The position numbers and the translations under genes are program-made. A stretch of DNA of 64,000 bases from a virus, in the IMG/VR virus record IMGVR_UViG_3300008448_008004, positions 29,829-93,828 of that record; one strand, written 5' to 3'. How positions within the stretch are numbered: position 1 is the first letter of the stretch; each line of letters starts with the position of its first letter. Below, in pieces: positions 12,501 through 54,250 of the stretch. Under the pieces are notes generated by a model, which did no database searches, was not told the DNA's origin, and was given only the letters and a program-made list of their open reading frames with translations.

Positions 12501-15500
12501 AAAAAAACAAAAAAGTAAAAAATCAAACCCATATGCTGCTCTTGGATATTTGTTTCTTAATTCATTACCACTTATAACAACAAAGGAAAAAATAAAAAAT
12601 TTCAACGGAGTTGTTGCTACTGATTTAGATTACTTAGCCGCAACCTTCAACAAATTTTCTTCAATACACCAAGTTCCATATGCTTGGGTATTAAAATACG
12701 GCTCAATTTGGCATAGATATAAAAACTATGTTAATAACAAAATTGATATTTTAGATGATGTATGGAAAGATTTTGATTATGCAAAATCATATGACCCTGT
12801 TAGTGGTAATTCTTATACAAATTATACTATTCTTGATTATAGTGGAAATCCAAAACAAATATCATTACAAAGAGTAGAACTTTTGGGGGCATTCCCAAAT
12901 TTCACACAAAGAACCGATATTTTTAATACGGGATTTTATCCACAAGTGGTTAATTCTGTTGAGTACTATCTAAACGGGAAAGATTTATTTACAGGATATA
13001 CTGCAAATGATTTTTCAAACGCATATAAAAAGAAAGGGTTTAGAATTGGTTTTACAAGTAAATCATCAAGTAGTTTTCCAAAAGGGTTTGACCAACAAAA
13101 CAATATAAGGACACTAATAAAAACAAATGCATATGTATATAGAGTCGATAGTGGTGATACAAAAACACCTGGTAAAAAAATAATAATGTACCCATCCATG
13201 GGTGCCGTTCCGTTTGACCAAGCAATTTTTGAATGTTTTAACGATACTAATGAAATAACAAAAGATATCTATGATAACAAATCAATGTTTAATGGGACTG
13301 TAAGAACACTTTGGGGGGCATCACATTTTGGTTATTTTGATAATTCTTTAATAAAAAAACCAAAACCTACTGAATATCTAAAAGTAATCAAAACAAATAC
13401 CGATTCACAAAATGATTTTGATATTACAAATAACCAATCAACATATTCTTTGATTGAGGAAATTTTTAATTTATTTGATGTTGATTTATTAGATAAGATG
13501 GAGGCTAAGTTTTTAACGTTTTGTAACCCAACACCATCGGCAAATGATTTGATATTAAATAGTGAAAACATCAAAACATCTTACACAAGTAGTGGAGGAT
13601 TAACAAATGCAAATTTAAAATTATTAAAAAGTCAAATAAGTGGTTTATTCACCTATAGAACCATGTTTTTTGATGGTACAAATGAAGAAAACGATGGTAA
13701 CATGTTAATTGATGACCAATTACAAACAATGTATACAACACTTAAAGAGTTTTTAAACTTTGATTGTGTTATAAAAATTGGTAACCCAACACAATTTGAT
13801 AGAAAATTATTTGACTCATTCAGTAACCTGACTCAAATGCAAACTGTGGACAAATTAACTTTTGATAGTTATATCGCCAATAATTTACCAGGGGACGGAA
13901 CTCCAATTACTTTGACACAAAGTTTAGCTAAAAATTCTGAAGCTTGGAAAGCGCTTAGAAAATATGTTGGATTTTCATCTATCAATGGGATTGATTATCA
14001 AAATCAAGTTGATAGTGCGTTTCCTTCAGTTAGTGGTATTACAACCGCAGCAACACAATCAGTACAAGTACAATTTATTGGAGATTACTCAACTCAATTT
14101 CCGGCAAATTCAGGAACTACAGATATTATTAACGTCCAAAAAACAGATGGTACTTATCAAGTTTTTAGAATTATAGGTGAAGCAAATCCACAAGATATCA
14201 AAACCAAACTTCAAAATATTAAATTCTATCAACCATACTCAAATATTGAAGACAGTTCAAATACGGTTCCCTCAACCACAGAAAATGATTTTACAACAAA
14301 TTATCAGTACGTTTCAACAATACAGGACATTGCGCCTGGAGATTACCAAATGGTTATTACGTATATACCAAACTTACTTCAATTAACTCCGATAAAATTA
14401 ATAGCCGCGGTCTCAACATTTCCTGGAATTCAAACGACAAATCCTTTTATTACAACACCATTCTCATTTCCACAACCATTTCCTAATACCGAAAAGTCAT
14501 TTGTTTCTGATTTCTTTTTTGATAACAATATAAAATTTACAAAAGAAAATATTGAAACACTTTACCCATTAATAAGATTATATTCAGAATTAAAACGAGA
14601 AGATAAAACTTTTGATAAAAACAAATTTACAACTTATATTAATGACTTTCTTTTAGACAGGTATGATTTACAAAATAAGATGGTAAATGAAACTTTTAGT
14701 AATTTAAATAAAATATTAAAAAATATTGAGGTTGATTTAGGTTTACCTAAAACTGCAATGAATGGAGATACAACAAAATTATCAACATATAATACATTAA
14801 AAGGTTTTAATGATAAATGGATTGCGGGTTCTGATTTAAAAACAAATACATTATTTGAGGATTTCTTATTTATGGATAGAGCAAATAGTGATTTAGGAGA
14901 TAGTTTTGTTTTAGATGTTGAAAAAGTGGTAAGTAGATTATCCATAGACACTAATCAAAATCAAAGTTTAATGTCATTGGTTAGTTCAATTTTGGAAGAT
15001 AATTTTTTTATTTTTATGGCAATGCCCGCTTACATTAATTTTTATGGAATCCAACAAGCCGCAAAAAAACCAGAGGCGTTAAGGGATAGTGAAATTGGTA
15101 ATAGTTTATTTGGGACTTATTTAGAAGTGGATTATACCAAATCAAGTCCAAAATTTTTATGTCTATATATTGGTAACCCTTCAGAATATCCTAAACCAAA
15201 AGAAAACACTTTTAATAGATTTGGTGACGATAGTTTTGATTTAAGAGTTCCTGATAATCCAGTAAGAAGGTCAGACCCAAATACAAATTACTCACTAAGT
15301 AATCGTGTTGTTGGATTTGCGGTAGATTTTGGAATTAGAAACCAAAACATATTTAAAAGTTTGAGTTTAGACATGTCAGAAATGAAAAATACTTCAGAGT
15401 CATTTAAAGTTTACGCTGATATGGGTAGCTCAGTTGCAGGGGATAAAGTTGGTCAACAATCACAATCATTATATAGTATATATAAATCTAGGTCATATGC

Positions 15501-31400: not shown

Positions 31401-33342
31401 CCAACCCTACGGTTTTACCGTAGATAATACTAAATTTAGTTCATTCACAAATAATTCACTTTACTATTATAACTCAACAGATAAAAGTCAGGCAATATCT
31501 TTTAAACCATTTCCTTTTGACACAAAGAGTTTAGGGTTCTATACAAATAACACAGGAACTATTGATAACGGTTCCGTTAACCAAATACGTTTTCAGTACA
31601 ATCCGGTCAGTTCATCCTACACCGGTCAAGGAAATGTTGAGGGTGGAACTATAATAACATCTAATGCCCCATTAGGTGGTCTATTAGACCCAACTCTAAA
31701 TACTTCATTAGAAGTTAGGGCAATGTCACCGGCATATCATTTACAACAGTTTACTAATGTTACAATTACAAACAATAATAGACTTGTATTTAGGTCCGAC
31801 AGATTACCAACCTCAACCACAGTTCAAATTAGTGGTAATTCTTCTTATTCCTTACATTTAAATGACAATTTTGCAATTTATAACGTTACTGAACAAGGTA
31901 ATGGTATGACAACTCCTTTTGTTCCATTGGCGGCAACTGACACTACTAATAATTTAGATGACCTTACAGGTGACACTTCTAATGGTATTACTGATGCGGT
32001 TATTAGTTCATTACAATGTAATAATTTAACATTACTTGAGTGTTATAGTGGTAATGGAACTAGTTTTGGTGTTAGTGAACCATGTGATGCAAATTTAGAT
32101 GATAAAAGAGTAAAAGGTGGATGTTATTATTTTGTTGATAAAACATTGATAGTTTCAATTCCTAAAGACATTAAATATTTTATTGAATGGAAGTCAAGAT
32201 TTAGAATGATGTTTGCCGCTTGTAGAGGGGTGTTCTCACAAGTTTTCCAAAACAATTGGGTTAATGGAACTCTTTATATGTTTTCATTTAAAAAGAAAAC
32301 AATTTTTAACGTAACAGGGCAACCTAAAAAATATTTATTCTGTGGTAGTTATGATAGTTCATTTAGACCTGGACAAGGTCCCGTTTTTTATACTGAAGGA
32401 ACCACAAATTCTTTATTCTATAGGTCAACACCATTTAATGGAACGAACTTTATAGGACAAGTTCCACAAAGTAAAACACCAATAACAAATTTAGTTCCTG
32501 TTGGATATAAAGGAATTAATACTAGAAACATATTCTTTCCAACAACCATTATGGATTTGGGACCAAGAGACCAATTTACAAAAGAAATATGTGTGAATCC
32601 ACAATTTGAGGGTTATATGTTAGAGACGATGAAATCAACATCATATAATGATACATCAGATTTACTTCAATTATTTATCATTTCAAGATTAATTAATAGT
32701 AATTTTTGGACTCAAATATTAGGTATTGGAGACGCATCAATTAATAGAATGTTTTCGAGAAGTGAAGATAGAATTGATGGTGATGTAGCACAACTATTTA
32801 GTATTAATTCAGAATATGGTGTTGAAGGATTTAGTGATGATGCATATGATGATGATACTTTATATGTCTCAGGTTCAGGAGATGCTTTGGTAGGTGTTTT
32901 CTTTACGGGTAGCACTGAAAATAGAATTAAGTTAACGCCGGGGATTACAACATTCACACCGACATTGACAAATTATTTCGGATACCCTAAAACTCAAGAA
33001 GTTCCATTTTATCTATGGAAATTAAATACGACAAACACAATTTTTGGTGACGATAAAAACGACTGGTCAACAGGTTTACAAGGTTCAGGATTTTATAAAC
33101 AAAAATACCAAACCATGAGTTTTTACCAAGCTCCATTCTCAAATTACTTTAATTCAACAAACTATGGTAAAAAAGGATATATCTATAATACCGATAGCAA
33201 TGGGTATACGGAATCATTCCCACCTGGTCAAAATAGTAGTTTTGTTGTTGGCGCTCCATATCATTTCTATTTTGGGTTAGGTAAAGGAAAAACTGCAATG
33301 AACAGATACATAACAAAATATATTTTGAATCAAGATGCCTAA
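28465..33342 (+). CDS. Large virion/baseplate-associated protein (1625 aa) with a prealbumin/carboxypeptidase-regulatory-like domain and a 59-aa hydrophobic segment
   Basis: GVVTGRV....G.GVPNANVSIF...KTNESGDF.I.G.P.G; hydrophobic run 29953-30129; C-terminal YHFYFGL..GKTA. Confidence 0.55.
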   Translation: MTKSYRIRTAPGTDKNIRVNINQDFDFLEILSLKLRQEDVYTRFCADYGVVTGRVIVNGGYGVPNANVSIFVPLDSVDENDPVISTLYPYRNVDQKNEDGYRYNLLPYRKEYDGHTPTGTFPDREDILTRTEVLEVYEKYYKYTVKTNESGDFMIIGAPLGLQTLTLDLDLSNIGCFSLRPADLIRAGLGTPEQFNGDQFKSSTDLSSLPQLVNIRQDIEVSSFWGENEICNIGITRADFDLRDFGIEIKPHAIFMGSLFSSSDEDFLKTNCKPGKDTGKLCDLVTAPGSILAVRQTIDYDADGRPILERYTLPDGGKVIDDEGTWLVEVPMNLDYVTTNEFGEQVISNDPNVGIPTKGKYRFRIQYQNESGMANSIMRGDYLVPNVKEWGWSLNNDDEPTDLNAQLYSYAFSLDWNDYGDDTTTIGQQMIQEAIDCEDRFYEFNYNKVYTISNFIDRWKWGANRLKHLGIKDITDRTCTNTVNKFPVNDGVRNFDFLVFIMNLLITILTPQFVSLIVILHVLAVLYPVLRVVINLILWIVNTLVYAICIVVAALSKKLKKEDCKKQNIQPLSKDNPFKRISLPMMSYPDCEACPCEDVELAEGDTGFQESATITISANNFSPLSDLSSIASFTSYNSAQSVNSSNPESFNNGIRQVFAGYQYQSLNNNFDKLIKTPITQFPVQGAVTWAGFDVQLAQSMNLANVRQRYFDGENHIKTTVRNINPSTNLVDPSTTFDDSVLIILCDSGTIANLPNSQLVTFTDLTTINDPNVSGLSTTNQFNTNNVTGSTPYNATGLVNKQINWIGTGGTVQNGILKLSITENGKEYKFKGGVEYFQVLTGGTIQQFSGITNTTGGLLNKYLFQKTQAYTYGGYLSFPAVNEYVFPIKFLDGFEDLEIIILSRGVDPYTQKQNIRYDLSRLFGYSFGSGPVIEGSYYLNIPIKPNTGPATSFSFYPWHSSYITPETHKITDNTNTSLYHQPYGFTVDNTKFSSFTNNSLYYYNSTDKSQAISFKPFPFDTKSLGFYTNNTGTIDNGSVNQIRFQYNPVSSSYTGQGNVEGGTIITSNAPLGGLLDPTLNTSLEVRAMSPAYHLQQFTNVTITNNNRLVFRSDRLPTSTTVQISGNSSYSLHLNDNFAIYNVTEQGNGMTTPFVPLAATDTTNNLDDLTGDTSNGITDAVISSLQCNNLTLLECYSGNGTSFGVSEPCDANLDDKRVKGGCYYFVDKTLIVSIPKDIKYFIEWKSRFRMMFAACRGVFSQVFQNNWVNGTLYMFSFKKKTIFNVTGQPKKYLFCGSYDSSFRPGQGPVFYTEGTTNSLFYRSTPFNGTNFIGQVPQSKTPITNLVPVGYKGINTRNIFFPTTIMDLGPRDQFTKEICVNPQFEGYMLETMKSTSYNDTSDLLQLFIISRLINSNFWTQILGIGDASINRMFSRSEDRIDGDVAQLFSINSEYGVEGFSDDAYDDDTLYVSGSGDALVGVFFTGSTENRIKLTPGITTFTPTLTNYFGYPKTQEVPFYLWKLNTTNTIFGDDKNDWSTGLQGSGFYKQKYQTMSFYQAPFSNYFNSTNYGKKGYIYNTDSNGYTESFPPGQNSSFVVGAPYHFYFGLGKGKTAMNRYITKYILNQDA

Positions 33343-35086
33343 CGAAAACAATATAAGAATAGTTTTAGGTTCTCAGCAATTTGCTGGTAACACGGACAAG
33401 GACATTTGGATACAACCACCATTGTTTGGTGATAGACGAACTATGGTTGAAGGTGATAGGTCTTTAACATTAAACCTTGCGGACCAATTTGATACGGAAA
33501 GACAGGAAAGTAATAAATTTAGAATATCAGGTAAAATAACAAATATATTTAACAATACGGTATCCGGTAAAACAACTTATACACCGTTTAGAAATATTCT
33601 TTATTACACCAATGCTGTTGCAAATGCAACTTTAAATACTCCACCAAACCCTAATGTTCCGTGGGAAGGTTACCCACAGTTTGATGAATTTACTTTTGCA
33701 AGATATTCTGCAGTTGCGGGACATAGAAATTATGTAGCAAAAAGTGCTACATCTTATAATTGGATGTTATATTTAACATATCCATTTAGTAGTGATACGA
33801 CACACCCGATGTCGTATAAAAGTGAGCAGTTTAATGTTAGTGTAAATTTTACGGCTGGAGACGGAATACCTTTTGTTATTTCTACAGGAAACATTAATGG
33901 TAAAAGAGTTGTGTACTTCAACTGTGGAACCAAACATAATTTAAGAATAGGTGAATGGGTTGAGATAAACATCCCAACAAACCCGAGTGGATTAGGAGGT
34001 AAAAAAATATTTCAAGTTTTTTCTTTGGGTAGTGAAAATTATAGGTCAGAAGAAACCGTATTTTCAACTTTTGATTTAAAATTTCCACCAAACCAAACTA
34101 CAAATGGAACGGTTGGTACGTTCAAAAGAATTAAAAATATTGTAAATAGTGGTGAAACAAAATCAATATATTATGTAAGATTACATAATGTGATTGCAAC
34201 TCATTCAGAGTTTAATATTACTCAAGCTGGTTTTGAAAACGGCCCTTTCAGTACTAAGAGTAAATTAGAATATTCCGCATTAACACCAAATAATGAACAA
34301 AGAGTATCGGTTAAAGAAGGTTCAAAAACTTTTAATTTTGTTTTAAATAAAGATATTTCAATAGAAGGTTTAAAAGATAATAATGGAAAACCGGTAACTG
34401 AGCTTTTTTTAACGACAATACAAAAGGGTTATATGGGTTGGTTTAATCCACCTATAACAAACTCATCAGGTATTAAAACTGCAATAGATGTTGGATGGGG
34501 GTTTAATTTTCTAAAAAATTCTATTGACCCTTGGTGGGACCACACATCACTTAATAATAAAGATAATATTCCTTTAGCGTTTTATGAACAACCCGCAGGT
34601 AGCGGGCAGTATTTTTATTATAATGATTTTATACCAACAGGAACAATACTTAAAGGTGACTTTTGTGAATATAACTATATAGAACAAAAAGAATATGTGA
34701 TATCACCGGCTTATCACAAATATTCATTTAATAGTTTATATTTTTCAGATAACTCGGCTTTGAATTTACCTAGTGGTTATGTTTATGAACCACATTATTC
34801 TATACCAATCAGAATTTTTAGTAACTATTTAGAATATGGTTTAAAAACTAATACGAGTAACGTCCCAACATATGCATGGTTCTCAGAATATGAACAAACT
34901 TTTGTGTGGAGAGACATCTACACATATGGATTTATAGATGCCGAAGGACTTGGGGTTGATTATCCTTTTACGAATGGTGCTCACTACCCATTTAAACAAG
35001 TTTTATTTTTACAAAAACCAATACAAAGAACGACAGATATATCAACAACTATCATAAACCAACCAATAAATGACGATTGTGAATAA
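33335..35086 (+). CDS. Putative baseplate/structural protein (583 aa)
   Basis: Overlap-coupled in the baseplate operon; beta-rich and aromatic-rich. Confidence 0.5.
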   Translation: MPNENNIRIVLGSQQFAGNTDKDIWIQPPLFGDRRTMVEGDRSLTLNLADQFDTERQESNKFRISGKITNIFNNTVSGKTTYTPFRNILYYTNAVANATLNTPPNPNVPWEGYPQFDEFTFARYSAVAGHRNYVAKSATSYNWMLYLTYPFSSDTTHPMSYKSEQFNVSVNFTAGDGIPFVISTGNINGKRVVYFNCGTKHNLRIGEWVEINIPTNPSGLGGKKIFQVFSLGSENYRSEETVFSTFDLKFPPNQTTNGTVGTFKRIKNIVNSGETKSIYYVRLHNVIATHSEFNITQAGFENGPFSTKSKLEYSALTPNNEQRVSVKEGSKTFNFVLNKDISIEGLKDNNGKPVTELFLTTIQKGYMGWFNPPITNSSGIKTAIDVGWGFNFLKNSIDPWWDHTSLNNKDNIPLAFYEQPAGSGQYFYYNDFIPTGTILKGDFCEYNYIEQKEYVISPAYHKYSFNSLYFSDNSALNLPSGYVYEPHYSIPIRIFSNYLEYGLKTNTSNVPTYAWFSEYEQTFVWRDIYTYGFIDAEGLGVDYPFTNGAHYPFKQVLFLQKPIQRTTDISTTIINQPINDDCE

Positions 35087-35921
35087 CCATTATAGACTTA
35101 CGATAAATCCTAACGATACTGAAATTAATATTCCAATCGAAATAACTTTTGATATGGAAGGTAGAGAACAGGCGGTTGAACAGTTTGAAACTAATGCTTT
35201 ACAAACTTTAATTAATGGTATTGAAGATTTTGAAATAGGTAGATTTGCACATGCCCCTTGGGATAATGACCCCGATAAGACTGAAATTAATTATATATTT
35301 AATTTCTTTAATCCAAACCTACCAACAACATTTGTAAATAACCCACCTTCAATTGGAGACTGGTTAGATGACTACCAATACGCGACTTTTACGGATTCCG
35401 AAATATATTATTTTTCAAATTCATTTAAAGGTTCATTCTTTAAATTAGATTTTTACGATAGTAAAATACAAGAAAGTCAAAAATTACTTTTTAGTGTTAT
35501 TTTACCAACTCAACAAGGGGTAAAAGAACCAGGAACAATAGGTCCTGCTTTGAATCCAACAAATGTTATGGTTAAAAAACCAAAATATATTTTAGATTAT
35601 ACGGGGGCAGATAAAGAAGGGTTTTTCTTTTATTGGTTGAAAGGTGATTCATACATCGCTCAAAGTTTTTTTTATATGTCTTGTAAATTCTTCAACGCTA
35701 AAAAAGGACAATTTATAAGAATGGTAAATGAACCACAATCCGGATTTGCGGGACCCGTTAAATTTAATTTTGATAAAGAAAAATATTTCTATTACAAAGT
35801 TGTGATGGATAACAATAGTTATGAATATAAGGTATATAAAGAATCTCCATCACAGGTTAGAGTTGGTGAAGGTCAAACAGCAAATAGTGCTATAACTTGG
35901 TATGAATATGTTAACCCATAA
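35070..35921 (+). CDS. Putative baseplate/structural protein (283 aa)
   Basis: Coupled to both neighbours; SFFKLDFYDS motif. Confidence 0.5.
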   Translation: MTIVNNHYRLTINPNDTEINIPIEITFDMEGREQAVEQFETNALQTLINGIEDFEIGRFAHAPWDNDPDKTEINYIFNFFNPNLPTTFVNNPPSIGDWLDDYQYATFTDSEIYYFSNSFKGSFFKLDFYDSKIQESQKLLFSVILPTQQGVKEPGTIGPALNPTNVMVKKPKYILDYTGADKEGFFFYWLKGDSYIAQSFFYMSCKFFNAKKGQFIRMVNEPQSGFAGPVKFNFDKEKYFYYKVVMDNNSYEYKVYKESPSQVRVGEGQTANSAITWYEYVNP

Positions 35922-37063
35922 TGGAATCAGAAAAATTTAGTCTACTTATTTCACCTGAAGTTTTAAATTCAGATGTTTTTGCATTAGTATATACCGCTAA
36001 AACATACTACGACCTACCAGCAAACGGAGTCCCAACAAATGCAACCGCATTTACTGCAACGACTCAAAACTTCTTCGTTTATTCAGGAATGTCTCAGATA
36101 TTAAGTGGAGGAACAAACGGAACATCATTACTAACAGGATTAACAATACCAATTATGTTAACTCAAACATATAATGATATTGGATATTACTCCGAATTTG
36201 ATGGATTAATTGCACAACAAGATATTATTACAAATTTTTTGGTATCGGGAGATAATACAAGTAATCTCTTCTCAATTAGTTTGTATAACACATCGGGAGA
36301 CTATACAACAAGTTATTTAGATTTTACAACGTTTAGTGTTGATTGGAATGATGGGAGTACTATACAGCAATTAACATCAACTCAACAAAACCACGTTTAT
36401 CAGTTTCCTGGAAAATATATAATAACACTTTCAGGTGCTAATCCTTGGGGCGTAACTACCGTATCAAAACCAATAACAATACCATTTATGAATGCTGGTG
36501 TTCCAAATCCAAATGGGAACATAACATTTACACCTAGTGGGGGAAGTTGGAACGGGGTTCAATTAAATTTAAATTACATATACCCTTTAGATTCTATTAA
36601 TAACTTAACATACCAATCTTCATCCAACTGGACTCAAACACCTTTTATTGTTTCAGGATATACAAAATCAAAAATATTAGATTTAAAAAGATATGGGTCT
36701 AACCCGTATACTGTTGGATATGTTTTTACAAAAAACAATCAATTTTATGGAAAAATAAATTCAATTAATAGTGGGATAACAGGGTATACAATAGATAATA
36801 TTGACTACTACGATTTACCTGACGGAAAAACATTCTATGTTGTAAGTAGTAATGGACTAACTCCAAATGATTTAGACCCAACAATAATTACTAAAAACGA
36901 ACAACTTTTAGATTTTGTAATGGCTCCACAAGTGCAAACTGACATTTATGTTGAAAGAGGTAAATATAGTGCCTTTGAAGCCATTGAAAGATTAGGTGAA
37001 GTTGATAACATGGGTGATTTAGAAAGGTATGGATATGGATTCTTCAAAATTAATGAAGCATAA
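35921..37063 (+). CDS. Structural protein with a PKD-like Ig domain
   Basis: VDWNDGS........NHVYQFPGKYIITL matches the PKD pattern W.FGDG...H.Y..PG.Y.V.L. Confidence 0.6.
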   Translation: MESEKFSLLISPEVLNSDVFALVYTAKTYYDLPANGVPTNATAFTATTQNFFVYSGMSQILSGGTNGTSLLTGLTIPIMLTQTYNDIGYYSEFDGLIAQQDIITNFLVSGDNTSNLFSISLYNTSGDYTTSYLDFTTFSVDWNDGSTIQQLTSTQQNHVYQFPGKYIITLSGANPWGVTTVSKPITIPFMNAGVPNPNGNITFTPSGGSWNGVQLNLNYIYPLDSINNLTYQSSSNWTQTPFIVSGYTKSKILDLKRYGSNPYTVGYVFTKNNQFYGKINSINSGITGYTIDNIDYYDLPDGKTFYVVSSNGLTPNDLDPTIITKNEQLLDFVMAPQVQTDIYVERGKYSAFEAIERLGEVDNMGDLERYGYGFFKINEA

Positions 37064-37078
37064 AAAATACAGATAAAC

Positions 37079-37086
37079 TATTTATA
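37079..37086 (+). promoter_or_regulatory. TATTTATA putative late-promoter motif
   Basis: 9 nt before ATG 37096. Confidence 0.6.
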
Positions 37087-37095
37087 AAATAAAAA

Positions 37096-38004
37096 ATGGC
37101 ATTAGGAACATATGGTATTGTAAGACCTTCAGATGTATCACCAGCGGATGTTGATATCATATTACACTACACACCGAGTAGAGACGTAACGGATAATTTT
37201 CTTCTTAAAAAGTTAAATTCGCAAAGTATTTTAACACCATATTACCATAACGCTGATACTGGAGGTAATTCGGGTGTAGAAATTTTAGGAGGTTTATATA
37301 ATTTAAAATTACCTGCTAGTGAGTTTAACAAAAAAGGAATCTACACATTGTATATTAAACCTGCTGAAATAAGAACAACTATCACTGATTGTGGGGTATT
37401 ATCGGCACTTCCAAATGTAAAAGGTATTATTATTAATATTAATGATGTTCCATCACAATACAGAAATAAATTTACAAACCAAGGGTTAGTTGGGTTTAGA
37501 GTTGAATACCTAAATTTAGATGGGAGTAAAATACCAAATTTTTATAGAATAGTAACTTCATCATTTTTTTGTGAACCTATTACAAATGAACAAGTTAATT
37601 CATCACAAAAAACCATCAGATATCGTTACGTTGATGGCGGGAGTGACTTAGTATTTTGTACTTTATCACCATCCTCTTCACCAACAAACAAACCAACAGC
37701 AACACCTTTTATAGGTCAACCAAATCAAAAAATTATTGTATCTAATACTTTCTTTAATCCAATCACCATTGATATACAAATGGCTGATTACGATTTGGAT
37801 ACGATTGCAATAGCTCTTTACGGTAATCAAACTAAGAGTATGGAAGACGGTATTTACACATTATATGATAGTAATAACAACATCTATAAACAATACAACT
37901 TGTTTGAGGTTAGAGATAACTTTAATGAGTTGTTATACGAAGTTAGACAAGATAGGGGTGCTAATATAGACTTCAGTAAAAACTTCACAAATATTATTAC
38001 TTAA
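37096..38004 (+). CDS. Putative structural protein (302 aa)
   Basis: Late motif upstream; TAATG-coupled to the next gene. Confidence 0.5.
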   Translation: MALGTYGIVRPSDVSPADVDIILHYTPSRDVTDNFLLKKLNSQSILTPYYHNADTGGNSGVEILGGLYNLKLPASEFNKKGIYTLYIKPAEIRTTITDCGVLSALPNVKGIIININDVPSQYRNKFTNQGLVGFRVEYLNLDGSKIPNFYRIVTSSFFCEPITNEQVNSSQKTIRYRYVDGGSDLVFCTLSPSSSPTNKPTATPFIGQPNQKIIVSNTFFNPITIDIQMADYDLDTIAIALYGNQTKSMEDGIYTLYDSNNNIYKQYNLFEVRDNFNELLYEVRQDRGANIDFSKNFTNIIT

Positions 38005-41000
38005 TGGCTAATAAGATTTTCTTCCCACCTATTGGAACAAATACTTTTGCAGATAATCTTGTCGGAGTTCAGATTACTGATGCAGGTGGATTAACGCAAG
38101 GAAATTTCCAATTTACCTCAGCGATATACGAAAAGTCTAACAGAACTTTCGATACTGGGGTTTTTTCTGAACCATATACTTTAGATAATATAAATGTCAC
38201 TAATATTGATGAGGCAAGAAGAATAATTGAAAAAAACTTTAAAGTTTATCCAAACTATGATTTATCAGAAATAACAAGTTTTTCTCTTTATGGTTCATTA
38301 GCCAAAAGACTTTCAGCGTCGGCGATTAAAATAATTAATAATTTCCCTGCGGCTATTGAAATAATCGCTTTACACCAATCAGGATTATACTCCGGATTTA
38401 CTGCTTATAATATTGTTTATAATTCAGTTAATAACGAAACAACTTTTGATATGGATTCTGGATTATTTAGAAATCCATTTAGTATTGATTTTTCTGTTAA
38501 TGCTGAAAGAAACATCGCGGTCCAACCGTTTCCTGTTCACCCAATAAGGGCTTTGACTACTGAATATGAAAAGTATTCAATCTATTTTGAAGATTTAAAT
38601 AAAGAATATAATTTAACATTTTTTGAACCAACTCAAAGTATGAGTGGTGGTACGGTTACCGTTAGTGTTAGTGGTGATTTATTTAGTGGCGCAACTGCAA
38701 CAACAAAATCTTTAATTTTAAAACCAAACAATAGTAAAACTCAAGAAATATTTGGAGATGCCTTTGATGAGGTTGAAAAATTCTTACTTAATCAAAATAC
38801 CTTACCAAAGTATAAAGCCGTTTTTTCATATCCCGAATATGATGGCACAACAGGTAAATACACACTATATAATAAGAGTGTAACTTGGCCTATTAATAAA
38901 TTTTGGAACTTAGATATTACAAGTTCATTATTTAACAAATATTTGGATAATTTACAATTAGTTGCCGAAAGACTTGATGAATATAAAACAAATCTAATTA
39001 GTAGGTTTTTAATAACAGGTTCATTCAAAGAATTTGATACACAAGACCAAAAAATTGAAAAGGTTTTACAACTTTATGGTAGAAGTTTTGATGAAGTTAA
39101 AAAATTTATAGATAGTTTAGCATATATGAATTCGGTTAATTACCAAGTCGGTAATGATATACCATCGCAACTATTATTTAATTTGGCTCAAACTTTAGGG
39201 ATTAATCCTAATATTTCACCAATAACGAATGAGAATTTTTTAGATTCTGTTTTTAGTTCAAAATCTCAACAAATTTATGCAGGTCAAACTAATAGCCCGA
39301 CACCAACAGAATTAAATTATCAATATTATAGGAATTTAATTTTGAATTCTGCTTACATGTACAAAACTAAAGGGACAAGAAGGTCTATGGAGTATGTTAT
39401 GAGATTTATTGGTGCTCCTGAGGCTTTAATGGAATTTAACGAAATAGTTTATGTTGCGGATGCTAGAATTAATGTTAATAATTTCACCGAACAATATGCA
39501 ACAATATCAGGTGGAACAAAATTTGTAACGGCACCAGCTTTAGACCCTACGAACACCTTTAAAGTTCAGGGTGTAACATATACAGGTTATACGAGTAGTG
39601 GGTTTATAAGACGTATTACCACAACATTAGATGACTATGGAGTGGATAGTGATGGTTACCCTAAAAGCCCTGCACAAACAAGTGACAATTTTTTTCAAAA
39701 AGGTGCGGGATGGTTCGAACAAACACCAAAACATAGGTCAATAGAGATTGCTGATAACGAAAATTCATCACTTAGCGGTTCAAACCCTTATTTAATTACA
39801 AAAATTCAACCATTTAATTTTGGTCAGGAGTATATGGATAGTCTTAGAAAATTCCCTGACATGAATGTGGGTTATACTTTAAGACGTGTTTCGGACAACC
39901 AAAAATCATGGGTAGTAAGTGATGTAGGTGTAAGAAAAAATAATGATAACTTTAATGGTGTTGATTATTCAGTTGGTAATGACAAATTGGTAATCAATTC
40001 TAAGAATTTGGAACTTTATATGAACATGGGACAAGGTATTACATATGATATATGGGACATGTCTGTTAAGTATGATTACCCAATACCAAATTCAGGTTTA
40101 ACATCACCATACCCATACCCTGGAAATATTGATTGGACACACATTGACCCAAAACCAAAACAAAAAACTTTCTTTGAGTTCGCACAAAGTTTCTATAACA
40201 ATTTTATTAATGTAAGAAACAGACAAACAATTACTGATGGTAAAACAGGAGGTTATCCAACACTACAATCTGTTTTTTGGAATTATTTAAATTCAGAACA
40301 AACGGTAGGAATACCATCAAATAATTTCTCATACCAAAAAATGATTGATTATACTTTAGGTTTGGGTGATTATTGGCAAAGACTATTGGAACAAGTTGTT
40401 CCTGGTACATCTTTATGGTTGACAGGTCAAAAAATGGAAAACTCTATTTTCCATAGACAAAAATACGTTTGGAGAAGACAAAGAGGGTGTCAGATTATTC
40501 CTGTGGCTTGTATTCCATGTAAGTATATGGGACAACCATTTGCTTATGACTGTATTGACCAAACATTACAATGTAGTATTGATGGGACACCTTCTCAAAT
40601 ATTACAAACATTAGTTGCAAGTTTGTTGTCTCAAAGTGGGTTTACACAAAACATGTGCGATTTAAATAGTATTGTTTCTAACTGGTATGTTGATTGTAGA
40701 TTAGACTCTCAAATATTAGTTCAAGAACAATTTTATACAGGTTATGGTATAAACGATTACCCAACTCAAACTCAACTAATTAATGCTATTGATACTGAGT
40801 TAGTCGGTTTATATAATTATGGGTTAAATTACTACTTTGCGGGGAACACTTTAATAGTGAGTAATACATCTTGTTATGATAATTTCTCAACTAGTACATT
40901 ATATTTAAACATCGGTGTTGATATTGATATTAATTGTACACCACCGGCATCAACACCTACACCAACCCCAACACCAACCCCAACACCTACACCAACCCCA

Positions 41001-41366
41001 ACACCTGCGTACGCAACTGTTAACATGTACTTAGGGTCTCCGGTTTTACTCCCATTACCATTAACATTAATTTATAGGATAAATGGAGGTGCATGGATTA
41101 CAATACCAAATCAAGGAGTTGGTAATAAACCTTTGACTTTACAAAATTACCAAACTTATTCAACATCTAATTTAATTGGTGATGTGATAGATATTGGTGT
41201 TTTAAATTCAGGTGGGTTTAATATAAGATTTGGAACTGGAAATAATAGTGGTACATACACAGGTTACTGTGGAATTAGTTCATACTATACTTATACTGTA
41301 GTAAGCGGTGTAAATAGTATTTACATAAACATCCAAGACACTGGTAGTGGATACGTAATATGTTAA
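38004..41366 (+). CDS. Baseplate wedge protein (T4 gp7 / P2 gpI-like core) with a Cys domain, (TP)9 linker and C-terminal beta domain
   Basis: FDEVKKFID.L, LL..LAQ.LG and YKTKGTRRSMEY..RFIG (KGT motif of gpI/gp7-type wedges). Confidence 0.6.
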   Translation: MANKIFFPPIGTNTFADNLVGVQITDAGGLTQGNFQFTSAIYEKSNRTFDTGVFSEPYTLDNINVTNIDEARRIIEKNFKVYPNYDLSEITSFSLYGSLAKRLSASAIKIINNFPAAIEIIALHQSGLYSGFTAYNIVYNSVNNETTFDMDSGLFRNPFSIDFSVNAERNIAVQPFPVHPIRALTTEYEKYSIYFEDLNKEYNLTFFEPTQSMSGGTVTVSVSGDLFSGATATTKSLILKPNNSKTQEIFGDAFDEVEKFLLNQNTLPKYKAVFSYPEYDGTTGKYTLYNKSVTWPINKFWNLDITSSLFNKYLDNLQLVAERLDEYKTNLISRFLITGSFKEFDTQDQKIEKVLQLYGRSFDEVKKFIDSLAYMNSVNYQVGNDIPSQLLFNLAQTLGINPNISPITNENFLDSVFSSKSQQIYAGQTNSPTPTELNYQYYRNLILNSAYMYKTKGTRRSMEYVMRFIGAPEALMEFNEIVYVADARINVNNFTEQYATISGGTKFVTAPALDPTNTFKVQGVTYTGYTSSGFIRRITTTLDDYGVDSDGYPKSPAQTSDNFFQKGAGWFEQTPKHRSIEIADNENSSLSGSNPYLITKIQPFNFGQEYMDSLRKFPDMNVGYTLRRVSDNQKSWVVSDVGVRKNNDNFNGVDYSVGNDKLVINSKNLELYMNMGQGITYDIWDMSVKYDYPIPNSGLTSPYPYPGNIDWTHIDPKPKQKTFFEFAQSFYNNFINVRNRQTITDGKTGGYPTLQSVFWNYLNSEQTVGIPSNNFSYQKMIDYTLGLGDYWQRLLEQVVPGTSLWLTGQKMENSIFHRQKYVWRRQRGCQIIPVACIPCKYMGQPFAYDCIDQTLQCSIDGTPSQILQTLVASLLSQSGFTQNMCDLNSIVSNWYVDCRLDSQILVQEQFYTGYGINDYPTQTQLINAIDTELVGLYNYGLNYYFAGNTLIVSNTSCYDNFSTSTLYLNIGVDIDINCTPPASTPTPTPTPTPTPTPTPTPAYATVNMYLGSPVLLPLPLTLIYRINGGAWITIPNQGVGNKPLTLQNYQTYSTSNLIGDVIDIGVLNSGGFNIRFGTGNNSGTYTGYCGISSYYTYTVVSGVNSIYINIQDTGSGYVIC
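40953..41006 (+). repeat. (Thr-Pro)9 mucin-like tract
   Basis: Direct translation; mixed synonymous codons. Confidence 0.95.
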
Positions 41367-41374
41367 GATAAAAA

Positions 41375-50413: not shown

Positions 50414-52012
50414 ATGGGTCAATTAAGTGGTAATAGTTGTAATATAATAACTCTCTTCCCTTTGGGTGTTGAGTGTAATGTTATTAATAGTTCCACACCT
50501 CAAACAACTAATGGTTTAATTTCTCTTTATATAACAGGAGGGACTGCACCTTATAATGTGATATGGAATGGAGGTCAACAAGGTAGTTTATTAACAAATC
50601 TTGGACCTGGTGAGTATACCGCAACGGTAGTTGATTACTATGGTGACTTTACAGGAACAACAACTTGTACTGTCGATTATGATAGTTTCTATTTGGAGAA
50701 ATTTGAAGATTGTTCTAATTCAGGTAGTTTTGTTTATTATTTGGCAGACTTATATAATCCGTTTAGTGCATCTTCAGTATACAGATTGACAACTCAAACA
50801 GGATGTTGGACAAGTAGTGGAACTACATTACATACAGGTCAAACTTATTATGACTTTTTTGCCGTTTCATCTGCTGGACCATATACGGGTTGCAGCCAAT
50901 GTTTACCTCCGGTTACACCGCCACCTGTAATACCGAGTGGATTATGTTTAACACAAACTGTAAACTCAGTACCGACTTTAATTAATTTCTATTCTGCGGG
51001 AACAATGAATGGTATGATGTCGTGGACAAGTGTAACACCAAGTTACAAAATATACTATAGTTCAGGAACAACAAAATGGTTATTAAGTGGATGGACGAAC
51101 GGTTCCGTTTTCAAACAATCACCAACATCACCACCAACAGGAAATTGGACAGTAACAGGTCCTAGTGCATTTACAACATCAATAACGGTGTTGTCGGGTA
51201 ATTGTTCTTCCGCACTATTGAAAGTTAAAGTAAATTCAACAAATCCAATATGTGCAAATCAAACAAATGGGTCTATGGTTTTAACTGGTAGTGGAGGTGT
51301 CCCTTCATATACTTACTCGTTAAATGGGGTAAATTACCAAGCATCAAACATATTTTCAAGTCTAGGTGTAGGGACATACACTGTTTATATCAAAGATTCT
51401 GTAGGTAATGTTTACTCAACAACTACCACACTGACACCTCAACAAAGTGTACAAAATTATGTGGTAAGTTTGAATTTAAATGAACAAACACCACAGTCTT
51501 ATGGTAATGCAACAAGTAAGACAACAAATTGGTCTATAGGGGTTTCACCGGCACTTCCAACAGGAGTTACAGTCAATATGACACTAACATTCAATATAAA
51601 CTATACTGCAAGTACTAATACCGCTTCTGTGGTTCCTACAATAACAAATTCAATAACGGCTATAACATCACCAAATACAGTTATAACACCAATTAGTTCA
51701 AGTTCAGTGACAGGAACAAGTAGTGCAAGACCAAGTTGTTCAGGTGGATTTATTAACACAAGTGCATCATCTCAAACTTATACTGTTCAATTAACAAATA
51801 ACGGAGTTGCGTCAGGAACAATAGTTCAATATGTGAATACACCATGTGTTGCCACTGGTTGTCCATTAAATGGATTTATAGTTGATAGTGTTTCAATACA
51901 GAATATTTCTATTACACCATCTTTATGTAGAAGTATTAATAAAAACATTACACCACAAAAAACACAACTTAATAAAACAGGAACAATTTGTCCAGCATCA
52001 CCATCATTATGA
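50414..52012 (+). CDS. SprB-repeat, Cys-rich virion protein
   Basis: NG.I....TGGTAPY...W....LTNL.PGEY...V.D and PIC....NG......SGG.PSYTYSLNG..YQ.SN.F..L..GTYTV..KD. Confidence 0.7.
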   Translation: MGQLSGNSCNIITLFPLGVECNVINSSTPQTTNGLISLYITGGTAPYNVIWNGGQQGSLLTNLGPGEYTATVVDYYGDFTGTTTCTVDYDSFYLEKFEDCSNSGSFVYYLADLYNPFSASSVYRLTTQTGCWTSSGTTLHTGQTYYDFFAVSSAGPYTGCSQCLPPVTPPPVIPSGLCLTQTVNSVPTLINFYSAGTMNGMMSWTSVTPSYKIYYSSGTTKWLLSGWTNGSVFKQSPTSPPTGNWTVTGPSAFTTSITVLSGNCSSALLKVKVNSTNPICANQTNGSMVLTGSGGVPSYTYSLNGVNYQASNIFSSLGVGTYTVYIKDSVGNVYSTTTTLTPQQSVQNYVVSLNLNEQTPQSYGNATSKTTNWSIGVSPALPTGVTVNMTLTFNINYTASTNTASVVPTITNSITAITSPNTVITPISSSSVTGTSSARPSCSGGFINTSASSQTYTVQLTNNGVASGTIVQYVNTPCVATGCPLNGFIVDSVSIQNISITPSLCRSINKNITPQKTQLNKTGTICPASPSL

Positions 52013-52030
52013 TAAAAAAATAAAAAACGA

Positions 52031-52038
52031 TATTTATA
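52031..52038 (+). promoter_or_regulatory. TATTTATA putative late-promoter motif
   Basis: 4 nt before ATG 52043. Confidence 0.6.
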
Positions 52039-52042
52039 AAAT

Positions 52043-54250
52043 ATGTCATACATAATTAAAGATACCGCAGCGTTAATTAACACACTTGTTACCGATGCAG
52101 GAAGAAAAAAGATATCACAAGGTAAATTTGATATATCATACTTCCAAGTTGGTGATAGTGAAGCTTGTTATAATTGTATAAACAATTTAGACCCGGTTAA
52201 TTTAAATGTGTTAATGCCACAATATAACACACAAAATTTAGCGCCAGTCCCACAAAAAAATAGAATGGAAATTAAATATCCAATCTATTTGGACTCAACA
52301 TCGGGTAGTACATATGGAGTCCCATTTGATGCTTCATATATTGATAGTGTTTATAATAGTGCGGCACCAAGAGGATTTTTTAATCCAAGTACAGGAACAC
52401 CTTACACTTATAGTGCTTACACAACTTCAGCATATACAATCAATCCTAACTTTATTGCACAAAATAGTGGTATTACTTCAGGAACGACTTTAACAATATC
52501 GGGGACATCATTAGCTCCTTCAGTATCAGGAACAGTAACACCTGGTATGTTTATGACATTATTTACAAATGGTCAGATTTCCCCCGTTCAAAATGCGGGA
52601 CCTCTATTCACTTATTTAGTAGTTGGTGTCACTGGTGATACTTCTACGGGAGGAACAGTTACAATACAAGTAGATAGACAATTACCTAACTTAGGAACAA
52701 TGGGACTTACAGGAACATCCCAAACTTTATTTTATCCAAGTGGTATGACTGTAATATATGATACAACAACACCTGAACCATATTGGGAAAATGATGTAAT
52801 TAATTTTGAAACAAACTGTGATGTTTCTGCAAGAAACGTAAATATTTGGAATATGAATATTCCGTGGACTGAATCGCCGGCAGGGGTATTCAGTAATACA
52901 AACCAAGATTATAATTTTTATAAATCAACAGGATATACCGGTTCAAAAGAATATTTTGGATATAACTCAAACACCGGTCAAGTAGACACCGACTCAACAT
53001 ATTATTATAATTCATTTGCTGATAAAATAATTCTTTCACCATCAGACCAAAAATCAATCGCGATTGTTCACTATACAAACCAAGCTATCGATAATTTTTA
53101 TGGAGAAAAATTTGCACAAGAAGAATACGACCCAAATAACCCTGGCGGGACAGGTCAAGCAAGAAATTTAAGAATTAGTATTCCTTGGTTAATGTGGCAT
53201 AAAAATTCAGGAGCAACTGTAGGTCAAGAATTTTATACAGACCCATCAGGATTTACAAGTCTTAATTTATTTGAACCACATTATATTGAATCTAAAAAAG
53301 ACCCTAATTTTAATGACCCCGGTTTAAGATATTATCACTTATGGGATACTAACCCTAATACTAATGGTTATCCTAATAGAGTAGGTAAAGTATTCCCTGA
53401 CTACAAAATGATTATATTTGATGATGATGAAATTGTTGCGGCACTTAATTACAAATCAAATAGGTCTTGGACATTACCAGCACCTAAATTAGGATTGGTA
53501 ACTCCAAATACATTTAGTGGGGTTTTAGGTGGAACAAGTGGTTTATTAACGGGAAGTTCTGAAACTTTATTTTTAACGTATATCTTTGAAAATACAGGAT
53601 TTACAAATTCTTTACATTGTAATTATTACACAACAATTACAGGAAATGACCAAAGTCTATTACCAGGTGCTTCAGACATTATTATAAGATTCGGTAATGA
53701 GTTTCCATTCTTAAGAAACACATATACATCACCAAGTGGATTTACTGCAAATCGTATAAAGTTAATTGCACAAAAAGTTTCAAGTGGGACCACAAGACCT
53801 ACAGCATCCGCTTGGAAAGAAATCGATGTAACATCACAAATTTCAGCAACAACGATTGGTGGTTACATGACACAATCAGGAATGACGGGAACAACATTAC
53901 AATTAACTAAAAATATGTATGATACAGCATCAACATATAGGTTAGATAATTATATCAATTTACCTGCACTTAATGATTCAGGATTAACTTTGAATTTTGG
54001 TGGAGAATACTTCTTTTTTGGTAATATTCAAACAGATATTCAAGCAACAATATACGTAATGAACTTTTTATGTAATTTAGGTCAAACACAATTCTTTGAT
54101 TCATCTAACCCGACTTGGACTGGGTCCAACCCATATGTAACCGAAGTTGGACTTTACAATGCAGATAAAGAACTTATGGTTATATCGAAGATACAATCAC
54201 CTGAAAAACGACAAGGTATTCAACAGTATCCGATTAAGTTAGATTTTTAA
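52043..54250 (+). CDS. Baseplate fibre-attachment (tail-collar-like) protein with a large insertion
   Basis: N-terminal TDAGRKKI......ISYF.VGD and C-terminal YVTEVGLYN..KEL..ISK...P resemble the two halves of the P2 gpH N-terminal/DUF3751-type domain. Confidence 0.55.
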   Translation: MSYIIKDTAALINTLVTDAGRKKISQGKFDISYFQVGDSEACYNCINNLDPVNLNVLMPQYNTQNLAPVPQKNRMEIKYPIYLDSTSGSTYGVPFDASYIDSVYNSAAPRGFFNPSTGTPYTYSAYTTSAYTINPNFIAQNSGITSGTTLTISGTSLAPSVSGTVTPGMFMTLFTNGQISPVQNAGPLFTYLVVGVTGDTSTGGTVTIQVDRQLPNLGTMGLTGTSQTLFYPSGMTVIYDTTTPEPYWENDVINFETNCDVSARNVNIWNMNIPWTESPAGVFSNTNQDYNFYKSTGYTGSKEYFGYNSNTGQVDTDSTYYYNSFADKIILSPSDQKSIAIVHYTNQAIDNFYGEKFAQEEYDPNNPGGTGQARNLRISIPWLMWHKNSGATVGQEFYTDPSGFTSLNLFEPHYIESKKDPNFNDPGLRYYHLWDTNPNTNGYPNRVGKVFPDYKMIIFDDDEIVAALNYKSNRSWTLPAPKLGLVTPNTFSGVLGGTSGLLTGSSETLFLTYIFENTGFTNSLHCNYYTTITGNDQSLLPGASDIIIRFGNEFPFLRNTYTSPSGFTANRIKLIAQKVSSGTTRPTASAWKEIDVTSQISATTIGGYMTQSGMTGTTLQLTKNMYDTASTYRLDNYINLPALNDSGLTLNFGGEYFFFGNIQTDIQATIYVMNFLCNLGQTQFFDSSNPTWTGSNPYVTEVGLYNADKELMVISKIQSPEKRQGIQQYPIKLDF

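What the first reader, a model, noticed from the sequence alone, without database searches (positions are those of the whole stretch)
35921..54250. Pervasive [ST]-[GA]-x-T tetrapeptide in outer structural proteins: a possible modification sequon
Seen (hand counts, approximate): about 19 matches in 52043..54250 (SGST, SAYT x2, SGIT, SGTT x2, TGDT, TGGT, SGMT x2, TGYT, SGAT, SGFT x2, TGFT, SATT, TGTT, TAST, SGLT), about 27 in 41375..43669, over 20 in 44269..46566, about 13 in 47870..49474 and 8 in 35921..37063. NrdA (809 aa) has about 1. A rough composition-based expectation for the 735-aa protein is only a few. The motif crosses unrelated folds (SprB, PKD, fibre, tail collar), so it is not a domain repeat. 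In the 2321-aa hub the few matches cluster in an apparent inserted module near 14030-14120. Inference: it is a surface signal selected across the virion proteome, most simply the acceptor site for a phage glycosyltransferase or other modifier.
Basis: partly seen in the sequence, partly recalled or inferred. Interest (0 to 1): 0.8.

Follow-up and report, generated by a model that had tools for sequence, protein, structure and literature searches.

The report
Sequon-like Ser/Thr-Gly/Ala-x-Thr motif on phage tail
About ten unrelated outer tail, fibre and sheath proteins of this uncultured aquatic T4-like phage carry the ordered word Ser/Thr-Gly/Ala-x-Thr four to eight times more often than chance, and the way it evolves suggests an attachment signal for a phage-made sugar coat, though no chemistry shows this and the enzyme is unidentified.

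Summary
The hand counts (8, 27, 23, 13, 19) are correct. Eight ORFs in the window hold 116 matches against 24-28 in shuffles; with two more proteins upstream in the same record the total is 145 against 34 (z about 20).

The proteins share no paralogy beyond one 45-aa SprB repeat. In the sheath, 11 of 12 sites lie in the lineage-specific part.

In relatives:
- Sites swap within the classes.
- Sites move, but their density is kept down to 30% identity.
- The motif is absent altogether in at least four clades of one family.

This fits selection by a factor acting in trans rather than a fold requirement.

A GT60 polypeptide GlcNAc-transferase gene sits among the fibre genes, and a large glycosylation operon lies upstream. 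However, GT60 does not track the motif across phages; it tracks (Pro-Thr)n linkers better.

Verdict: a real, sharp, sequon-like signature. O-glycosylation is the best but unproven reading, and the writer enzyme is open. Earlier notes of this scan report similar S/T-Gly motifs in other uncultured T4-like phages.

The parts
35921..37063 (+). 380-aa structural protein with a weak PKD-like hit; 8 motif sites against 1.0 expected
   Evidence: Its G002 homologue (31% identity) has 5 against 0.9, and only 2 positions are shared.
38004..41366 (+). 1120-aa structural protein; 8 sites against 1.9 expected; carries a (PT)n linker at aa 977-1001
41375..43669 (+). 764-aa protein with SprB repeats; 27 sites against 4.7 expected
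   Evidence: Only about 11 of all 145 sites carry a SprB-type signature.
44269..46566 (+). 765-aa collagen-like tail fibre; 23 sites against 7.0 expected
46613..47812 (+). GT60-family polypeptide GlcNAc-transferase homologue (PF11397); it has no motif site itself; a candidate writer, not shown to be one
   Evidence: Pfam E 1e-67; PHROG 24687, E 2e-104; the DSH metal motif is invariant across 9 homologues.
47870..49474 (+). 534-aa protein with three (Pro-Thr)n mucin-like linkers; 13 motif sites against 3.6 expected
49474..50412 (+). 312-aa structural protein; 7 sites against 1.1 expected
50414..52012 (+). 532-aa protein with a SprB repeat; 11 sites against 3.1 expected
   Evidence: Its homologue in the motif-poor locus L147 has 1 against 0.6.
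52043..54250 (+). 735-aa structural protein of unknown fold; 19 sites against 2.2 expected; the family used for the evolutionary tests
14032..14120 (+). Cluster of 3 of the 6 sites of the 2321-aa ORF (9496-16461), which as a whole is not significantly enriched (6 against 2.9)
33335..35086 (+). 583-aa protein, borderline here (3 against 0.9); its G002 homologue has 8 against 0.9

Best explanation
phi-[ST]-[GA]-x-T (phi = I/L/V/F/M; x is not P/R/K) is a short linear signal on exposed loops of the outward-facing virion proteins: fibres, outer baseplate proteins, and the outer domains of the tail sheath. Selection keeps its density high, and that selection acts through a factor in trans.

The most likely factor is a phage-encoded cytoplasmic O-glycosyltransferase. 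It would put a sugar on the invariant Thr or on the leading Ser/Thr, and the phage's other glycosyltransferases would then extend it into a glycan coat on the tail apparatus.

Shown:
- the enrichment, its order and its protein-level nature;
- its restriction to about 10 unrelated structural proteins;
- class-preserving conservation, positional turnover and repeated complete loss;
- the presence of GT60 and of a multi-GT, CMP-sugar operon.

Inferred:
- that the sites are modified at all;
- that the modification is a sugar;
- which residue is the acceptor, and which enzyme writes it.

GT60 itself more probably serves the (Pro-Thr)n linkers.
For: Statistics:
- 145 against 34 in ten proteins, z 20.6; with a hydrophobic residue at -1, 67 against 8.4.
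- The reversed and permuted words show little or no excess.
- [^ST][GA].T and [ST][^GA].T are depleted.
- Thr is enriched 5x at the last position and Ser only 1.2-1.9x.
- Codons at the sites are heterogeneous.
- No K/R/E occurs at -1, no P/R/E/H at x, and no P at +4.

Unrelated carriers: BLAST detects no paralogy apart from one SprB repeat.

Surface location:
- 11 of 12 sheath sites lie in aa 124-362 and none in the conserved gp18-like C-terminal part.
- Tape-measure-size proteins and enzymes are not enriched.
- In a confident AlphaFold model (pLDDT 89), 16 of 19 sites have their G/A-x in coil, 3 are in helices, and the local shapes are diverse.
- Motif-free homologues have fewer hydrophobic and more polar residues at the aligned positions.

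Evolution:
- In 24 homologues of 63-94% identity, the sites vary only within the classes. The motif Thr is kept 0.87 against 0.67 for other Thr (p 0.006), while x is freer than average.
- At about 30% identity only about a third of positions are shared, yet the enrichment persists.
- 98 representatives hold 769 forward, 194 reversed and 146 expected matches, spread over 188 distinct columns.
- Eight homologues in at least 4 clades have zero sites, one of these clades being sister to the window protein.
- In the one motif-poor locus with flanks (L147), the neighbouring homologue is motif-poor too.

Controls: a GT60-negative Flavobacterium myophage has 70 forward, 68 reversed and 48 expected.

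Machinery:
- GT60 lies among the fibre genes and is syntenic in about 38 related contigs.
- Upstream lie an aminotransferase, a CMP-sugar cytidylyltransferase, a methyltransferase, a Maf-like PF01973 protein, a GT11-GT10 fusion, a GT2 and a GT2_5-GT4 fusion.
- In contigs found through the 735-aa protein, GT60 is present in the two most complete ones.
Against: - There is no chemical evidence.
- No glycosyltransferase family co-varies with the motif.
- Phages G003 and G004 have a GT60 72-73% identical but show no enrichment in the 58% and 43% of their genomes that were sampled.
- Xanthomonas phage Xoo-sp13 (GT60 40% identical, complete genome) has 115 against 131 expected.
- The motif-poor locus L147 still has a GT60, a sugar kinase and an HtrL-like gene.
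- The Maf-like gene occurs only in this record.
- The glycosyltransferase operon could serve DNA or host-surface modification instead.
- A hydrophobic residue followed by S/T-G is also what the end of a beta-strand running into a turn looks like.
- The loop preference in the model is weak statistically (16 of 19 where 65% of the protein is coil).
- No solvent accessibility could be computed.
Confidence: 0.5

Rival explanations
1. The motif is an unmodified structural or physico-chemical loop element. A hydrophobic strand end followed by small and hydroxyl residues would make uncharged, hydrophilic connections, favoured in the beta-rich outer proteins of this lineage for folding, solubility or stability.
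For: - Position -1 is I/V/L in about 40% of sites, and Gly follows.
- Most sites sit at strand-loop junctions in the model.
- A few sites coincide with SprB-repeat signatures.
- No glycosyltransferase tracks the motif.
Against: - Homologues of the same family fold without a single site, in at least 4 clades.
- No site is kept in more than 25 of 84 sequences, yet the density is maintained.
- The word is strictly ordered, and Thr is strongly preferred over Ser at the last position.
- Sites occur in coil, at strand ends and in helices.
- A related-host myophage shows no such bias.
Confidence: 0.22
2. The motif is read in trans, but not by a glycosyltransferase. It could be a site for another modification (for example phosphorylation, acylation or methylation), a docking word for an assembly chaperone, or a weak glycan- or surface-binding patch used for adsorption.
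For: The same evolutionary signature of selection in trans applies. A methyltransferase and many unannotated genes are present. The glycosyltransferase link is unproven.
Against: No kinase or acyltransferase was seen in the 94 kb held. Glycosylation genes are by far the most prominent modification machinery, and one lies inside the fibre gene block.
Confidence: 0.15
3. The specific version: the adjacent GT60 enzyme is the writer, and [ST][GA]xT is its sequon.
For: - The GT60 gene lies between motif-rich fibre genes, syntenic in about 38 contigs.
- GT60 enzymes start Ser/Thr O-GlcNAc glycans on polypeptides (PMC8724618).
- GT60 was found in the two most complete contigs sampled without regard to it.
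Against: - G003, G004 and Xoo-sp13 have GT60 without the motif, and L147 has GT60 but is motif-poor.
- Both GT60 subtypes occur with and without the motif.
- (Pro-Thr)n linkers, the classical type of GT60 substrate, co-occur with GT60 in this record, G001, G002, G004 (in the adjacent gene) and Xoo-sp13.
Confidence: 0.15
4. The enrichment is an artefact of composition, low-complexity sequence or internal repeats.
For: The proteins are rich in Ser, Thr and Gly, and some contain repeats (collagen-like, SprB, (PT)n).
Against: Local 15-aa and 30-aa shuffles still give z 17-20. Permuted words made of the same residues are not enriched. The proteins are not paralogous. The 735-aa protein has no repeats and is enriched 8.6-fold.
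Confidence: 0.02

Closest known systems
Mycobacteriophage virion O-glycosylation by phage-encoded glycosyltransferases (Freeman et al. 2023, as summarised in PMC12619734)
   Same: Phage-encoded glycosyltransferases next to structural genes, and virion proteins as the presumed substrates, made in the host cytoplasm.
   Different: In those phages the glycans sit on the C-termini of the capsid and tail-tube subunits, and no internal sequon is known. Here the signal is an internal four-residue word on loops of fibre, baseplate and sheath proteins, and no chemistry has been done.
Autotransporter heptosyltransferases TibC/AAH acting on TibA and AIDA-I (PMC4358343)
   Same: A dedicated enzyme O-glycosylates many Ser residues on loops of a beta-rich surface protein.
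   Different: The enzyme family differs (heptosyltransferase, GT-B). There the acceptor sites lie in a repeated beta-helix unit of one substrate. Here the word is spread over about 10 unrelated proteins.
GT60 polypeptide alpha-GlcNAc-transferases of Dictyostelium and Trypanosoma cruzi (PMC8724618)
   Same: ORF 46613-47812 is a clear PF11397/GT60 homologue with the metal-binding D-x-H motif. (Pro-Thr)n mucin-like linkers, the classical type of substrate, are present and adjacent.
   Different: The characterised enzymes are eukaryotic and act on dense Ser/Thr/Pro mucin domains. [ST][GA]xT disfavours Pro and does not track GT60 across phages.
Eukaryotic and viral short sequons (N-x-S/T; the Ser-Gly-x-Gly xylosylation site of proteoglycans), recalled from general knowledge
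   Same: A short degenerate ordered word with a free x position, a Thr-over-Ser preference, and sites that shift while their density is kept.
   Different: The residues and the chemistry differ. N-x-[ST] is not enriched here (74 against about 85).
Bacteroidota general O-glycosylation sequon D-(S/T)-(A/I/L/V/M/T)
   Same: The likely host phylum, and O-linked glycosylation of many proteins at a three-residue word.
   Different: That system acts in the periplasm on exported host proteins. Its word is not enriched in these phage proteins (17 against 18-20; DSA 0).

Membership tests
GT60 / Pfam PF11397 (ORF 46613-47812) | Profile match above the curated cut-off over the catalytic domain | tested here: met
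   229.5 bits against a cut-off of 21, E 1e-67; PHROG 24687 glycosyltransferase, E 2e-104.
GT60 / Pfam PF11397 (ORF 46613-47812) | Conserved D-x-H/D metal-binding motif of GT-A polypeptide transferases | tested here: met
   Q-L/I-D-S-H is invariant in 9 phage homologues spanning 39-84% identity.
GT60 / Pfam PF11397 (ORF 46613-47812) | Transfers GlcNAc to Ser, Thr or Hyp of a polypeptide | not testable with these tools
   Needs an enzyme assay. No solved structure has a similar sequence.
Protein glycosylation sequon | An ordered, degenerate word in significant excess in the substrate set and not in other proteins | tested here: met
Protein glycosylation sequon | Sites are exposed on the folded or assembled protein | tested here: inconclusive
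   Sheath sites lie in the non-core region. 16 of 19 sites are in coil in the AlphaFold model. Aligned positions in motif-free homologues are hydrophilic. No solvent accessibility or assembly model is available.
Protein glycosylation sequon | Presence of the word co-varies with a cognate transferase | tested here: not met
   GT60, the Maf-like PF01973 and the GT2_5 PF13712 do not separate motif-rich from motif-poor genomes in the small and incomplete sample. The motif-free lineages could not be fetched.
Protein glycosylation sequon | A glycan is chemically shown on the site | not testable with these tools
   No isolate and no mass-spectrometry data.
Domain-intrinsic repeat motif (SprB / PKD / collagen) | The sites sit at one homologous position of a repeated domain shared by the carriers | tested here: not met
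   Only two of the ten proteins share a 45-aa SprB repeat. About 11 of 145 sites carry a SprB-type signature. The 735-aa protein has no Pfam domain.
Bacteroidota general O-glycosylation | Excess of D-(S/T)-(A/I/L/V/M/T) in the substrates | tested here: not met
   17 observed against 18-20 expected.
Mycobacteriophage-type virion glycosylation | Ser/Thr-rich C-terminal extensions of the capsid and tail-tube subunits as acceptors | not tested
   The capsid gene is not in the 94-kb record. The sites here are internal.

The most novel reading that the evidence does not exclude
A widespread lineage of uncultured aquatic jumbo T4-like phages, probably of Bacteroidota, decorates the exposed loops of its whole tail apparatus through sequon-directed cytoplasmic O-glycosylation at phi-[ST]-[GA]-x-T. 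The sites turn over like the glycan shields of animal viruses. The system has been dropped wholesale several times, presumably when the enzyme or the selective pressure was lost.
Probability: 0.45. Interest if true: 0.85.

Novelty: new variant of a known kind. Interest (0 to 1): 0.72.

Why it matters
Virion glycosylation is known in phages only from a few mycobacteriophages, and no phage sequon has been described.

This motif is sharply defined. Its sites can be predicted from sequence alone, in thousands of metagenomic proteins: 2731 close homologues of one family and 599 representatives. That would make phage glycan coats directly testable by mass spectrometry or by co-expression.

If confirmed, it would give a sequence-only way to map which phage surfaces are glycosylated. 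It would also open questions on adsorption, on defence against grazers, enzymes or host receptors, and on particle stability in water.

Even if no sugar is attached, a four-residue word kept at constant density through complete positional turnover is an unusual mode of selection and needs an explanation.

Tried and rejected
- **Composition or low complexity:** rejected by local shuffles and permuted words.
- **A DNA-level oligomer:** rejected by mixed codon use, both Ser codon families included.
- **A domain repeat:** rejected.
- **N-x-S/T and the Bacteroidota D-S/T-hydrophobic sequon:** not enriched.
- **Motif variants reported by this scan in other phages:** weak here ([ST][GA]S 1.8x, G.TG 2.2x, SG 1.9x).
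- **GT60 as the determinant:** not supported.
- **The Maf-like PF01973 protein as a general determinant:** rejected, since it occurs only in this record.
- **A different motif in the motif-free homologues:** none found.
- **Fetching the genomes of the motif-free lineages:** IMG/VR holds no close relative. The first metagenome scan found nothing. The second returned 79 motif-rich loci and one motif-poor locus, L147.
- **Bacterial SprB relatives as a control:** none found.
- **Fold identification of the 735-aa protein:** no Foldseek match in the PDB.
- **Cultured relatives:** none. The 735-aa protein has no hit in 50,697 phage records.


Full report
**Setting**

The window is bases 29829-93828 of a 93.8-kb virus record. 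CheckV rates the record about 23% complete, and relatives reach 200-330 kb. It is therefore a fragment of an uncultured jumbo T4-like phage with 31% G+C.

The window carries a T4-type baseplate protein, NrdA and a gp18-like sheath relative. No cultured relative exists: the 735-aa protein has no hit in 50,697 phage records. The lineage is nevertheless abundant in aquatic metagenomes, with 2731 homologues at E<1e-5.

**Observation**

Eight adjacent ORFs (35921-54250, all except the 302-aa ORF 37096-38004 and the glycosyltransferase) hold 116 matches to [ST][GA].T.
- Whole-protein shuffles give 24, and 30-aa and 15-aa block shuffles give 28 (z 17-20).
- The reversed word has 40.
- [GA][ST].T has 27 and [ST][GA]..T has 24, at expectation.

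Two further proteins upstream in the same record are also enriched:
- a 626-aa protein, with 17 against 1.3;
- the 1070-aa tail sheath, with 12 against 3.5.

All ten together hold 145 against 34 (z 20.6). With I/L/V/F/M at position -1 the count is 67 against 8.4. Enzymes and the very large internal proteins (2039 and 2321 aa) are not enriched.

The motif was not cherry-picked:
- An unbiased scan of all gapped triplets ranks SG.T, SA.T and TG.T at the top, after the (PT)n repeats.
- A residue-by-residue scan finds only S and T enriched at position 0, only G and A at position 1, and only T at position 3 (5x, against 1.2-1.9x for Ser). P, R and K are disfavoured at x.
- This holds both in the ten proteins and, independently, in 98 representatives of one family.

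Codon use at the sites mirrors the background and uses both Ser codon families, so the signal is at protein level.

**Not a domain repeat**

The ten proteins show no BLAST similarity to each other or to themselves, except for one 45-aa SprB repeat shared by two of them. Only about 11 of 145 sites carry a SprB-type signature.

**Location**

In the sheath, 11 of 12 sites lie in aa 124-362 and one at 665. None lies in aa 700-1070, the part that aligns with gp18-type sheaths of 2674 phages. By analogy with T4 gp18, the middle insertions face outward; this step is an inference.

An AlphaFold model of the 735-aa protein, built on 85 diverse homologues, is confident (pLDDT 89.3, pTM 0.88).
- 16 of 19 sites have their G/A-x residues in coil, often just after a strand.
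- Three sites lie in helices.
- There is thus no single local geometry. The statistical excess over the 65% coil background is weak.
- No PDB fold match was found.

**Evolution of the 735-aa family**

*Close relatives.* Among 24 homologues of 63-94% identity, sites change only within the classes. One column, for example, reads SGFT, SGIT, TGLT and TGVT; another reads SANT, TAST and TGGT. Seven sites are kept in all 24. The motif Thr is kept 0.87 of the time against 0.67 for other Thr (p 0.006). The leading S/T is kept 0.92 against 0.79. The x residue is less conserved than average.

*Distant relatives.* At 28-35% identity (contigs G001, G002), homologues of five different proteins are still enriched 4- to 15-fold. 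Only about a third of the positions coincide.

*Representatives at 31-52% identity.* The 98 representatives hold 769 forward, 194 reversed and 146 expected matches. These are spread over 188 distinct alignment columns, none occupied in more than 25 of 84 sequences.

*Wholesale loss.* Eight homologues have no site at all. They fall in at least four separate clades, one of them sister to the window protein, which has 19 sites.
- Their summed expectation from composition alone is 3.7.
- Their lower Thr content is roughly what removal of the motif Thr residues would give.
- At the aligned positions they carry more polar and fewer hydrophobic residues.

*Flanking DNA.* L147 is the one motif-poor locus obtained with flanks. 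There the neighbouring homologue of the SprB protein is motif-poor too, with 1 against 0.6.

The pattern is conservation of the word, free movement of its positions, constant density and all-or-none loss. This is what a signal read by a trans-acting factor predicts, and it is hard to reconcile with a fold requirement.

**Controls**

- A Flavobacterium T4-like phage without GT60: 70 forward, 68 reversed and 48 expected in 20 structural proteins.
- Xanthomonas jumbo phage Xoo-sp13: 115 against 131 expected.

The bias is therefore not a general property of phage tail proteins.

**Machinery**

ORF 46613-47812, inside the fibre block, is a clear GT60/PF11397 polypeptide GlcNAc-transferase homologue with an invariant D-S-H motif. 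It is syntenic in about 38 related viral contigs.

Upstream, outside the window, lie:
- a class-III aminotransferase;
- a CMP-sugar cytidylyltransferase;
- a methyltransferase;
- a Maf-like PF01973 protein;
- a GT11-GT10 fusion;
- a GT2;
- a GT2_5-GT4 fusion.

This confirms earlier notes of the scan.

**The enzyme is not identified**

- GT60 at 72-73% identity occurs in two unrelated phage contigs (G003, G004) that show no enrichment in the parts sampled.
- Xoo-sp13 has a 40%-identical GT60 and no motif.
- L147 is motif-poor yet has a GT60.
- Two GT60 subtypes exist, and both occur with and without the motif.
- The Maf-like gene is found only in this record. GT2_5 is found in the five better-sampled motif-rich contigs, but the comparison is confounded by phylogeny.

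By contrast, (Pro-Thr)n mucin-like linkers accompany GT60 in this record (one in the gene directly downstream), in G001, in G002, in G004 (in the adjacent gene) and in Xoo-sp13 (12 proteins). They are absent from the GT60-negative control region. GT60 enzymes start mucin-type O-glycans on Ser/Thr-rich domains in protists (PMC8724618). The linkers are therefore the more likely GT60 substrate.

**Verdict**

The best reading is a sequon for phage-directed O-glycosylation of exposed virion loops (confidence about 0.5). A purely structural loop motif (about 0.2) and another trans-acting reader (about 0.15) are the rivals.

Earlier notes of this scan report related S/T-Gly motifs in other uncultured T4-like phages. 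Here those variants are weak and [ST][GA]xT is the dominant word. This suggests lineage-specific versions of one phenomenon, but those notes are unchecked leads.

This blocked the most decisive computation, the gene content of the motif-free lineages.

Noticed in passing
window 47870-49474, 38004-41366 (aa 977-1001) and 3070-9189 (aa 1078-1099); also G004 45266-47992 and Xoo-sp13: (Pro-Thr)n mucin-like linkers co-occur with the GT60 gene. This holds in this record, G001, G002, G004 (in the gene next to GT60) and Xanthomonas phage Xoo-sp13 (12 proteins). None is present in the 91 kb of the GT60-negative Flavobacterium phage that was examined. The linkers are the more likely GT60 substrate.
   Followed up: partly
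window 46613-47812 compared with G003 and G004: The GT60 protein is 72-73% identical in contigs whose shared core proteins are only 21-42% identical or not detectably related. This points to horizontal transfer of the gene among aquatic phages. Two GT60 subtypes (A and B) exist.
   Followed up: partly
G000:C1:1146-8570 (upstream of the window; L059): A co-oriented glycosylation operon, confirmed by Pfam: class-III aminotransferase, CMP-sugar cytidylyltransferase, methyltransferase, Maf-like PF01973 protein, GT11-GT10 fusion, GT2 and GT2_5-GT4 fusion. A dUTPase/dCTP-deaminase-like gene follows, so DNA glycosylation is an alternative role.
   Followed up: partly
G000:C1:25186-28398 (L060:5186-8398): The tail sheath is 1070 aa long. 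Only aa 700-1070 resemble gp18-type sheaths, and a large lineage-specific region carries 11 of the 12 motif sites.
   Followed up: partly
G000:C1:13774-15654 (L059): A 626-aa Cys-rich protein of unknown family lies between replication genes and has the highest enrichment of all (17 sites against 1.3 expected). It is presumably a virion protein encoded away from the tail block.
   Followed up: no
whole record: CheckV rates the 93.8-kb record about 23% complete, and relatives' contigs reach 200-330 kb. The phage is probably a jumbo phage. It may belong to, or lie near, the 'moraphage' lineage described in PMC12619734 (Bacteroidota hosts, four core glycosyltransferase families); this was not tested.
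   Followed up: no
L020, L021 and L039, 5086-9960: A 1624-aa fibre protein in related contigs carries 86 motif sites against 12.9 expected, the densest carrier seen.
   Followed up: no
L147:230-9990: The motif-poor relative carries a different sugar gene set beside its GT60 (a PfkB sugar kinase and an HtrL/YibB-like protein), and its structural proteins are poor in Thr.
   Followed up: partly
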